The notes under the pieces: model-generated
The model's input: only the letters and a program-made list of their open reading frames with translations
Told to the model about the DNA's origin: nothing
Databases searched by the model: none
Made by a program: the position numbers and the translations under genes
Shown here: positions 23,840 to 24,454 of the stretch, piece after piece
How the letters are laid out: each line of letters begins with the position of its first letter
Numbering within the stretch: position 1 is the first letter of the stretch
NCBI RefSeq assembly: GCF_044324785.1
Contig: NZ_CP172127.1
Source: Escherichia coli
GTDB taxonomy: Bacteria > Pseudomonadota > Gammaproteobacteria > Enterobacterales > Enterobacteriaceae
Length of the DNA stretch: 64,000 nucleotides
Direction: 5' to 3' (one strand)

Positions 23840-24454
23840 GTGAGCAGAAAAGATACTAAAGAATTGCTAACTATCTGCATGGTGTACTTTTCAATTTATT
23901 TTTGTGCATACATGATAGTCCCAGATGAGTTTGAACATGGCAGTATTATTTATTCCATAACATTCTATTTTTTAGAGCTAACACCAATTTTGGCTATCCT
24001 TTTGGCAATACATATTTATTTTTCCTTAAAAAAAGAATCGACTAATTGGGAGAAGGTATGGAGAGACAGAGGATTTCTAACATCACCTAAAGATGATGCA
24101 TATGAGAGTGATTTTTCTGACTTTATAACAAACTACTACTCCAGCGAACAATTCAAAAATAGACTGTCTGATGTTTGGGAAACAGCAATGTATTCCATAG
24201 GGATTATATTATTGATACTTACTGGTATTGCTCAATATGTTTTTAACATTGACTTATCATTAAATCCTGAAAATTTAATATCGCCATTGATTTTTGGTGA
24301 GATATTGATCTTCTCATTCGGAATTTTCTTGAGTGTTGTTCTCTGCTCATTATGCAAACTACTGACTAACAGGTATCCAGGTGAAGCAAGGAGAGCAAGA
24401 AAGGCAAATCCATATTATCTTTTATTTCCTAATGGAGACAGCAGAGATATCTAA
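23840..24454 (+). CDS. hypothetical multi-TM membrane protein encoded in an AT-rich segment
   Basis: 204-aa ORF with at least four hydrophobic helices; strongly AT-rich codon usage unlike flanking DNA; convergent with the ejection-protein-like operon. Confidence 0.45.
   Translation: MSRKDTKELLTICMVYFSIYFCAYMIVPDEFEHGSIIYSITFYFLELTPILAILLAIHIYFSLKKESTNWEKVWRDRGFLTSPKDDAYESDFSDFITNYYSSEQFKNRLSDVWETAMYSIGIILLILTGIAQYVFNIDLSLNPENLISPLIFGEILIFSFGIFLSVVLCSLCKLLTNRYPGEARRARKANPYYLLFPNGDSRDI

What the first reader, a model, noticed from the sequence alone, without database searches (positions are those of the whole stretch)
23840..24454. AT-rich multi-TM membrane protein convergent with the ejection-like operon
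This 204-aa protein has at least four hydrophobic helices and strongly AT-biased codons. It sits immediately downstream of the gp16-like gene on the opposite strand, the position where P22-like phages carry superinfection-exclusion and other moron genes. No homolog was recognised.
Basis: inference. Interest (0 to 1): 0.45.

Follow-up and report, generated by a model that had tools for sequence, protein, structure and literature searches.

The report
Divergent SieA exclusion gene on satellite
The 204-codon AT-rich membrane gene is a real, previously unnamed, distant relative of phage P22's SieA protein, which stops related phages from injecting their DNA; unusually it sits on a small phage-parasitic island (EcCIMP1-like) rather than in a P22-like prophage.

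Summary
Window 23840-24454 (+) is a 204-codon ORF with a GTG start and a good ribosome-binding site. It has four hydrophobic helices and 32.8% GC against 48.6% for the window. It converges on the gp16-like ejection gene across an 18-nt gap.

"No homolog" is wrong. It is a divergent SieA-family protein:
- BLASTP gives 29-34% identity to P22 and E. coli HS1 SieA over about 110 residues.
- hhalign gives 96% probability.
- An HMM built from Pfam-SIEA-flagged proteins scores it 69.7 bits, against at most 10.4 bits for shuffles.
- The core motif RYPGEA is present.

Closer relatives (34-50% identity) occupy the sieA slot between gene 16 and mnt in P22-like prophages of Citrobacter, Serratia and Providencia.

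The most likely function is to block DNA injection by P22-like phages at the inner membrane. This is inferred and untested.

Two points are new:
- The host element is not a P22-like prophage. It is a ~20-kb EcCIMP1-like PICI that carries only the gp14/7/20/16 genes.
- The coding sequence is one of at least four exactly swappable cassettes at this slot in E. coli.

It is a new member of a known kind, of moderate interest.

The parts
23840..24454 (+). sieA-like coding sequence: 204 aa, 4-TM, predicted N-in/C-in inner-membrane protein. The SieA-homologous core is residues ~52-189, with the motifs YYSSEQFKNRLSD (99-111) and LTNRYPGEARRARK (175-188).
23827..23834 (+). Shine-Dalgarno-like AAAGGGGG, 5 nt before the GTG start. 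It lies in the flank shared by all alternative cassettes.
   Evidence: read directly from the sequence
23277..23839 (+). Conserved upstream flank (96-97% identical in about 600 E. coli genomes whatever the cassette, 95.5% in EcCIMP1). It presumably holds the promoter. One sigma-70-like site lies at 23309-23336, but the scan found no more sites than in shuffles. A 20-codon uORF at 23800-23859 overlaps the start.
   Evidence: promoter role is inference
24455..24466 (.). Short palindrome GCCATCCATGGC between the two converging stop codons. It is conserved after every cassette and in the Serratia, Citrobacter and P22 gene16-sieA junctions. It may be a bidirectional terminator or a recombination boundary.
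   Evidence: function is inference
24473..26578 (-). gp16-like ejection (DNA transfer) protein, 701 aa. It is the neighbour gene and belongs to the class of protein that SieA acts against.
26578..27999 (-). gp20-like ejection protein (Pfam Inj_translocase).
27999..28676 (-). gp7-like ejection protein (Pfam P22_gp7).
28670..29131 (-). Homolog of the gene that precedes gene 7 in P22-like phages (Pfam DUF2824; gene 14 by my recall).

Best explanation
The ORF encodes a divergent member of the SieA superinfection-exclusion family.

Shown here:
- It is a four-helix membrane protein. All 18 Lys/Arg residues lie in the N-terminus, the 53-residue central loop and the C-terminal tail, which are predicted cytoplasmic. 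The two predicted periplasmic loops are tiny.
- It shares with P22 SieA and E. coli HS1 SieA the central-loop motif (Y/F)S.E.F.NR.(S/T)D, the C-terminal TM hairpin and the cytoplasmic RYPGEA motif.
- It occupies the sieA position, tail to tail with gene 16.

Inferred:
- It is made constitutively from its own promoter in the conserved 560-bp upstream flank.
- It inserts in the inner membrane.
- Like the two tested SieA proteins (Leavitt et al. 2024), it stops superinfecting P22-like podophages from passing DNA across the inner membrane, by interfering with assembly or function of the gp20/gp16 conduit.

Here the gene is cargo of an EcCIMP1-like PICI that took up a gp14-7-20-16-sieA block from a P22-like phage. 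The protected unit is therefore the host plus the satellite.
For: Sequence homology:
- phrog_7745 'SieA-like', E 4.4e-4.
- BLASTP 29% identity over 108 aa to P22 SieA, E 8e-8.
- BLASTP 34% identity over 118 aa to HS1 type-B SieA, E 2e-9.
- Profile-profile comparison with P22-type SieA: 96.3% probability, E 1.6e-9.
- An HMM of 26 SieA proteins (24 flagged Pfam PF26849:SIEA, plus P22 and HS1 SieA), none from this clade, scores the ORF 69.7 bits over residues 52-189; the best of 500 shuffles scored 10.4.
- An exhaustive profile search returns 160-210-aa membrane proteins with the same motifs.

Synteny:
- The Citrobacter (50% identity), Serratia (40%) and Providencia (34%) homologs lie between P22_gp16 and mnt-arc-ant-tailspike in P22-like prophages.
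- P22 has the same geometry.
- The palindrome at the junction is conserved.

Architecture matches the 4-TM type B/C form described in PMC10883804.

All six sieA-type genes measured are AT-rich relative to their gene 16.

Function of the family: types A and B, only 24% identical, both exclude P22-like phages, and escape mutations map to gp16 and gp20.
Against: - No experiment exists on this protein or its clade.
- Homology covers only residues ~52-189. The N-terminal hairpin aligns only at architecture level.
- The precomputed Pfam annotation gives no SIEA hit for this protein, and the local Pfam copy lacks the model.
- The published motif FxRYPxEAxxFNK is only partly kept (TNRYPGEARRARK).
- No promoter was convincingly identified: the scan found 5 sites against 4.7 expected.
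- The gene is not in a P22-like prophage, the only context in which sieA function has been shown.
- EcCIMP1, the one tested relative of the host element, lacks this gene.
Confidence: 0.7

Rival explanations
1. It is a SieA-family protein re-purposed for the satellite's own life cycle. For example, it could discriminate between virions carrying the PICI's ejection proteins and those carrying the helper's, or modulate helper re-infection. In that case it would not be a general host-protective exclusion factor.
For: - The gene travels with a private gp14/7/20/16 set on a PICI that has no capsid or tail genes.
- EcCIMP1 is mobilised by the P22 relative Kapi1 and adds to superinfection immunity only in lysogens.
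- Fusions of a gp16 N-terminal module to SieA modules exist.
Against: - A 94%-identical gp16 occurs with a different, non-SieA cassette, so there is no tight SieA/E-protein pairing.
- P22 and HS1 SieA show broad, non-discriminating exclusion.
- EcCIMP1 itself lacks the gene.
Confidence: 0.12
2. It is an inactive or silent relic: an AT-rich, H-NS-silenced leftover of the captured phage block with no current function.
For: - Very low GC.
- No strong promoter match.
- An IS2 lies about 880 bp upstream.
- The slot tolerates complete replacement.
Against: - The intact 204-aa protein is found on 387 contigs, and about 100 complete genomes carry the region at >=98% nucleotide identity.
- Motifs are conserved across genera at 30-50% identity.
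- The cassette boundaries coincide exactly with the CDS, and a conserved RBS is retained.
- P22 sieA is equally AT-rich and is functional.
Confidence: 0.1
3. It is a membrane effector of another kind, such as an abortive-infection or depolarising protein (SieB/RexB-like), a T4 Imm-like protein, or a small transporter.
For: - It is a multi-TM protein next to a defence hotspot (AbiD or CapP/ImmA-like cassettes).
- Weak sub-threshold Pfam hits to MnhB and DUF1634.
Against: - All Pfam hits are below their cut-offs (15.7 bits against 22.5).
- No PADLOC or NCBIfam hit.
- No PDB sequence match.
- Specific SieA homology explains the sequence better.
Confidence: 0.05

Closest known systems
Phage P22 SieA (type A; Hofer 1995 as cited in, and Leavitt et al. 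2024, PMC10883804)
   Same: - Position and orientation: converges on gene 16 with an ~20-nt gap and a shared junction palindrome.
- AT-rich.
- Central cytoplasmic loop with the (Y/F)S.E.F.NR..D motif, a C-terminal TM hairpin, and a cytoplasmic RYPGEA motif.
- 29% identity over 108 aa.
   Different: - 40 aa longer.
- An extra N-terminal TM gives 4 TM and a cytoplasmic N-terminus.
- The tail is RRARK...PYYLLFPNG instead of NGFNKEF.
- It is not flanked by mnt/arc/ant/gene 9.
- The host element is a PICI.
E. coli prophage HS1 SieA (type B; EcHS_A0321, WP_000717773.1)
   Same: - 4-TM architecture with a cytoplasmic N-terminus.
- 34% identity over 118 aa.
- Same slot after gene 16.
   Different: - The N-terminal 80 residues are not detectably similar.
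- BLAST score is 42 bits, against 77 bits between types A and B, so it is more distant than A and B are from each other.
Providencia/Proteus/Morganella 195-198-aa SieA-like proteins (P0007, P0080, P0091), probably Leavitt's 'type C'
   Same: - Full-length collinear homology: 30-34% identity over 94% of the length.
- Same NR.SD and NR(Y/V)PGEARRARK motifs.
- The one checked (Providencia rettgeri, P0061) lies between gene 16 and mnt in a P22-like prophage.
- Some are flagged PF26849.
   Different: - Only about one-third identical.
- Different genera: type C was reported as limited to those three genera, and E. coli as having only types A and B.
- Equivalence with type C could not be verified, because only locus tags are available.
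EcCIMP1, the PICI of E. coli MP1 mobilised by the P22 relative Kapi1 (Pick et al. 2025, PMC11773190)
   Same: - Same backbone: 97.7% identity over 9.3 kb (gp7, the gene 14-like DUF2824 gene, primase, Ash, AntA).
- The region upstream of the sieA slot is conserved (95.5%).
- A PerC gene is present.
   Different: - EcCIMP1 has another gp16 type.
- In the slot it has a 232-aa lipoprotein on the other strand, and no sieA-like gene.
- Its integrase and attachment site differ.

Membership tests
SieA superinfection-exclusion family (Pfam PF26849 SIEA; types A-C of Leavitt et al. 2024) | Significant sequence similarity to family members or a family profile | tested here: met
   - BLASTP E 8e-8 (P22 SieA) and 2e-9 (HS1 SieA).
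- hhalign probability 96.3%.
- Home-made HMM of SIEA-flagged proteins: 69.7 bits against at most 10.4 for shuffles.
SieA superinfection-exclusion family (Pfam PF26849 SIEA; types A-C of Leavitt et al. 2024) | Scores above Pfam's own PF26849 gathering threshold | tested here: inconclusive
   The model is absent from the local Pfam copy; P22 SieA itself gets no hit. The precomputed annotation shows '-' for this protein. It does flag relatives at 33-34% identity (P0086, P0088).
SieA superinfection-exclusion family (Pfam PF26849 SIEA; types A-C of Leavitt et al. 2024) | Conserved cytoplasmic motif FxRYPxEAxxFNK near the C-terminus | tested here: met
   The core RYPGEA is present at residues 178-183, after TM4. 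The flanks differ: T.. in place of F.., and RRARK in place of ..FNK. R178 and P180 are invariant in 56 family sequences, and A183 is conserved in at least 90%.
SieA superinfection-exclusion family (Pfam PF26849 SIEA; types A-C of Leavitt et al. 2024) | Small polytopic inner-membrane protein (3 TM in type A, 4 TM in types B/C) with a cytoplasmic loop and C-terminus | tested here: met
   By prediction only: four hydrophobic helices, and all 18 Lys/Arg residues fall in the N-terminus, loop 2 and C-terminus. Localisation was not tested.
SieA superinfection-exclusion family (Pfam PF26849 SIEA; types A-C of Leavitt et al. 2024) | Gene located just after gene 16, on the opposite strand, between genes 16 and 9 | tested here: met
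   The gene-16 side is met (18-nt gap). The homologs have the full gene 16 / mnt-ant-tailspike context. In the window there is no mnt, arc, ant or gene 9 on the other side.
SieA superinfection-exclusion family (Pfam PF26849 SIEA; types A-C of Leavitt et al. 2024) | Carried by a P22-like prophage (true of all cases examined by Leavitt et al.) | tested here: not met
   The host element is an EcCIMP1-like PICI without capsid, portal, tail or lysis genes. This describes the known distribution rather than the protein family: PF26849 proteins also occur in other integrase islands.
SieA superinfection-exclusion family (Pfam PF26849 SIEA; types A-C of Leavitt et al. 2024) | Blocks DNA injection by P22-like phages; escape mutations map to gp16/gp20 | not testable with these tools
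   Needs plating, K+ efflux and escape-mutant experiments.
Known transporters or other characterised membrane families (MnhB, DUF1634, T4 Imm-type, PADLOC defence proteins) | A profile or fold match above threshold | tested here: not met
   - Pfam best hit 15.7 bits against a 22.5 cut-off.
- PADLOC and NCBIfam: none.
- Foldseek on BFVD and PDB: no hit with E <= 0.001.
- PDB sequence profile: E >= 0.17.

The most novel reading that the evidence does not exclude
EcCIMP1-like PICIs, which parasitise P22-like helper phages, may carry an 'entry module'. It would consist of their own ejection proteins plus a hot-swappable exclusion cassette: SieA-like here, and three other small envelope proteins or a lipoprotein elsewhere.

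Under this reading the cassette would be the so-far unexplained source of PICI-mediated superinfection immunity. The private ejection proteins would let satellite-loaded particles enter cells that exclude the helper. That would make it a lock-and-key arms race at the DNA-entry step, run by a satellite.
Probability: 0.15. Interest if true: 0.7.

Novelty: new member of a known kind. Interest (0 to 1): 0.4.

Why it matters
- It names a gene annotated only as 'hypothetical protein' in about 100 of 5,426 complete E. coli genomes, including EHEC O26.
- It adds an E. coli/Citrobacter/Serratia lineage to the SieA family. This lineage is neither type A nor type B.
- It shows that sieA is not confined to P22-like prophages, because here it rides on a phage satellite.
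- It gives a concrete, testable candidate for the superinfection immunity that Pick et al. (2025) measured for this PICI family but could not assign to any known defence system.
- The exact-CDS cassette polymorphism points to three further small envelope proteins as candidate exclusion factors.

Tried and rejected
- **Phage collection.** Megablast and tblastn of the ORF found nothing, so no sequenced phage carries this type.
- **Profile libraries.** The local Pfam gave only sub-threshold noise and lacks PF26849. NCBIfam and PADLOC gave no hit.
- **Rfam.** A scan of 19-30 kb gave only a spurious miRNA hit at E 0.097.
- **Remnants of neighbouring P22 genes.** I looked for mnt, arc, ant, tailspike and orf59a upstream of the ORF and found none.
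- **Upstream region in phages.** A distant blastn of 22916-23839 matched only the IS2 end and a chance 90-nt hit.
- **Promoter and terminator scan.** It found no more sites than in shuffles.
- **Type C identity.** I tried to match the clade to Leavitt's type C through locus tags in source names. The tags MU9_2893 and HMPREF1563_1315 did not appear.
- **Degraded-prophage hypothesis.** I considered that the element is a degraded P22-like prophage. I rejected this because the same architecture recurs at different attachment sites and matches the experimentally mobile EcCIMP1.
- **Alternative cassettes.** I tested whether they are divergent SieA proteins. They do not score with the SieA HMM or BLASTP.

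Full report
**1. Observation**

The ORF listing gives a 204-aa ORF at 23840-24454 on the + strand with a GTG start. The sequence shows AAAGGGGG 5 nt upstream of the start. The 701-aa gene on the - strand (24473-26578) ends 18 nt beyond its stop, so the two genes converge.

GC is 32.8% for the ORF, against 48.6% for the window and 47.7% for the neighbour. GC3 is 30% against 41%. The GC trough in the sliding profile coincides with the ORF.

With this composition an open run of 204 codons has probability about 1e-7. In 2000 shuffles the longest open run averaged 62 codons and never exceeded 130.

Kyte-Doolittle analysis gives four hydrophobic segments. All 18 Lys/Arg residues fall in the N-terminus, the 53-residue central loop and the C-terminal tail. 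None falls in the two short loops at 28-35 and 136-148. This predicts an N-in/C-in four-TM inner-membrane protein.

An AlphaFold2 model built on a 56-sequence family alignment is confident (pLDDT 87.7, pTM 0.73). It shows four long helices plus short helices in the loop and tail.

**2. What it is**

The protein is WP_000087355.1, annotated 'hypothetical protein' wherever it occurs. The libraries tested gave the following:
- Pfam (local copy): only sub-threshold noise.
- PADLOC and NCBIfam: nothing.
- PHROGs: a weak hit to phrog_7745 'superinfection exclusion SieA-like', E 4.4e-4.

I fetched P22 itself. There sieA lies directly after gene 16 on the opposite strand with a 22-nt gap, the same geometry as in the window.

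Evidence of sequence homology:
- BLASTP against P22 SieA gives 29% identity over 108 aa, E 8e-8.
- BLASTP against the experimentally tested type-B SieA of E. coli prophage HS1 gives 34% over 118 aa, E 2e-9.
- A profile of the ORF and its two closest relatives, searched against 1.84 billion representative proteins, returned 43 hits. Those inspected are mostly 160-210-aa membrane proteins with the same two motifs, YSSE..NR.SD and CK.LTNRYPGEA..RK.
- Profile-profile comparison of the ORF's clade with P22-type SieA gives 96.3% probability, E 1.6e-9, over 101 columns.

The database's precomputed Pfam family for P22 SieA relatives is PF26849, named SIEA. That model is missing from the local Pfam copy. 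I therefore built an HMM from 26 SieA proteins outside the ORF's clade, 24 of them flagged PF26849 plus P22 and HS1 SieA themselves. It scores the ORF 69.7 bits over residues 52-189. The best of 500 shuffles scored 10.4 bits.

The homology is therefore solid for the central loop, the C-terminal TM hairpin and the cytoplasmic motif. The N-terminal hairpin matches only at the level of architecture.

**3. Relatives and synteny**

Close relatives are rare:

| Organism | Identity to the ORF |
|---|---|
| Citrobacter freundii | 50% |
| Serratia fonticola | 40% |
| Providencia / Proteus / Morganella | 30-34%, over the full length |

The Citrobacter, Serratia and Providencia rettgeri genes lie in bona fide P22-like prophages. 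Each sits between a P22_gp16-family gene (convergent) and mnt-arc-ant-tailspike, which is the sieA slot.

A short palindrome (GCCATCCATGGC) between the two stop codons is recognisably conserved in the window, Serratia, Citrobacter and P22.

Low GC relative to gene 16 is seen in all six sieA-type genes measured: 33.7% against 49.9% in P22 and 36.3% against 47.1% in HS1, with comparable gaps in the Citrobacter, Providencia and Serratia prophages.

Leavitt et al. [quoted passage not shown]
- Types B and C have an extra N-terminal TM and a cytoplasmic N-terminus.
- E. coli and Salmonella prophages are said to have only A or B.
- Type C is said to be limited to Providencia, Morganella and Proteus.

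The ORF is neither A nor B: its BLAST scores against them are 36 and 42 bits, while A against B scores 77. It groups with the Providencia/Proteus/Morganella proteins, which are probably type C. I could not verify that equivalence, because only locus tags are published.

**4. Context**

The gene is not in a P22-like prophage. The window carries a ~20-kb island between dinD and yicC, whose genes were identified with Pfam:
- a P4-type integrase;
- an AntA/B antirepressor, a DUF4222 protein and Ash;
- a Zn-ribbon/Toprim/DUF927 primase;
- then only four phage-type genes: the DUF2824 gene that precedes gene 7 in P22-like phages (gene 14 by my recall, E 8e-61), gp7 (2e-72), gp20 (5e-58) and the gp16-like gene;
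- the ORF;
- a variable block;
- a PerC-family gene.

The gp16-like protein compares as follows:

| Compared with | Identity |
|---|---|
| gp16 of the Citrobacter P22-like prophage | 76% |
| gp16 of Escherichia phage N7 | 67% |
| P22 gp16 | 30% |

The island is 97.7% identical over 9.3 kb to EcCIMP1 of E. coli MP1. Pick et al. 2025 (PMC11773190) showed experimentally that EcCIMP1 is a PICI mobilised by the P22 relative Kapi1. They also showed that it contributes to superinfection immunity, although PADLOC and DefenseFinder found no known defence system in it. That paper does not mention SieA.

EcCIMP1 itself has a different gp16. In the slot it carries a 232-aa lipoprotein on the other strand, not this gene.

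**5. The slot is a cassette site**

The flanks of the ORF occur in about 600 of 5,426 complete E. coli genomes, but only about 100 of them have this ORF.

Alignment shows identity up to 23843/4, which is just past the start codon at 23840. Identity resumes at 24454, the last base of the stop codon.

| Coding sequence in the slot | Complete E. coli genomes |
|---|---|
| SieA-like ORF (this one) | 99-101 |
| 129-aa multi-TM protein | 227 |
| 146-aa protein with a signal peptide | 125 |
| 131-aa multi-TM protein | 87 |

All share the same upstream flank and RBS, and the same junction palindrome or a close variant of it. None of the alternatives scores as SieA. A 94%-identical gp16 accompanies a non-SieA cassette, so the cassette and the ejection proteins are not tightly paired.

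The adjacent block 20641-23277 is also variable. Here it holds an ImmA/CapP-like protease and a membrane protein, interrupted by IS2. In other genomes it holds AbiD.

**6. Mechanism**

Shown: family membership, predicted topology, synteny, and an intact, conserved gene.

[quoted passage not shown] The 24%-identical HS1 type B protein gives the same phenotype.

I therefore propose that this protein inserts in the inner membrane and prevents the gp20/gp16 conduit of incoming P22-like phages from delivering DNA. Because its predicted periplasmic loops are only about 8 and 13 residues long, any contact with the conduit would be within the membrane or at its cytoplasmic face. That last point is inference.

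Confidence in family membership is about 0.9. Confidence in the exclusion function is about 0.7.

**7. Rivals**

- Satellite-specific re-purposing of the protein (0.12).
- A silent relic (0.10).
- Another kind of membrane effector or transporter (0.05).

Evidence for and against each is listed in the Rival explanations section.

**8. Novelty and score**

The kind is known (SieA). The protein is an unnamed, divergent member, in a species where only types A and B were reported. It is on a PICI rather than a P22-like prophage, and it is one allele of an exact-CDS cassette polymorphism.

This is a useful annotation and a testable lead for the unexplained PICI-mediated superinfection immunity. It is not a new mechanism. 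Interest is 0.4.

Noticed in passing
window ~19300-39800: The whole ~20-kb island between dinD and yicC is an EcCIMP1-like PICI. It has an integrase, AntA/B, Ash and a Toprim/DUF927 primase. Its only phage-type genes are homologs of the DUF2824 gene (gene 14-like) and of P22 genes 7, 20 and 16. Window 27839-37136 is 97.7% identical to EcCIMP1 of E. coli MP1. The published description does not identify these genes as ejection-protein genes.
   Followed up: partly
window 23844-24453; L011:3527-3916, L012:3524-3964, L013:4526-4921: The coding sequence is exchanged exactly from start codon to stop codon for at least three unrelated small envelope-protein genes: a 129-aa and a 131-aa multi-TM protein and a 146-aa secreted protein, found in 227, 87 and 125 E. 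coli genomes respectively. All sit behind the same flank and RBS. They are candidate novel exclusion factors.
   Followed up: partly
L018:14632-15330 (E. coli MP1 EcCIMP1): In EcCIMP1 itself the slot after gp16 holds a 232-aa lipoprotein (lipobox LLAGC) on the gp16 strand. It is a candidate for the unexplained superinfection immunity reported for that PICI.
   Followed up: no
window 20641-23277: A variable defence-like block lies next to the slot. Here it holds an ImmA/IrrE (CapP-like, PADLOC E 5e-25) protease at 21072-21560 and a 125-aa membrane protein at 20691-21068. In other genomes an AbiD-family gene replaces them.
   Followed up: partly
window ~21632-22962: An IS2 copy (InsC/InsD ORFs at 21642-22915; terminal inverted repeats at 21639-21671 and 22920-22952) is inserted between the ImmA-like gene and the conserved flank of the sieA-like gene. 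It is absent from the otherwise near-identical locus in strain N12.
   Followed up: yes
window 20001-20110 and 29755-29875: Two clusters of GTTGGTTCA iterons lie in inverted orientation. One 55-nt pair of arms is 93% complementary. One cluster is just downstream of the primase gene and the other is near the PerC end. They bracket the ejection-gene/sieA/hotspot segment. They are likely origin or regulator-binding sites.
   Followed up: no
proteins P0028 (277 aa) and P0036/P0072 (430 aa, Aeromonas salmonicida); window 26399-26578 (gp16-like N-terminus): The first ~60 residues of the window's gp16-like protein (WKDVI..EQYFNEVVAP) form a mosaic module. The same module is found, behind a signal peptide, fused to a C-terminal SieA domain in proteins of small integrase islands (63% identity over 54 aa, E 1e-18). 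This may be a decoy, or Rosetta-stone evidence for a SieA-gp16 link.
   Followed up: partly
L016:1-8498 and L017: A 165-aa PF26849:SIEA protein (P0017) lies in an integrase island a few kb from a radical-SAM/His-Xaa-Ser (HXS) gene set. HXS was recently reported to block phage DNA entry (PMC13128918). Two DNA-entry blockers in one island.
   Followed up: no
window 23800-23859: A 20-codon upstream ORF (MMIAILNNAKGGWCEQKRY) overlaps the GTG start in another frame. In the alternative cassettes PGAP uses this ATG as the gene start, so their annotated N-termini (MIAILNKAKGRVGV...) are probably too long.
   Followed up: no
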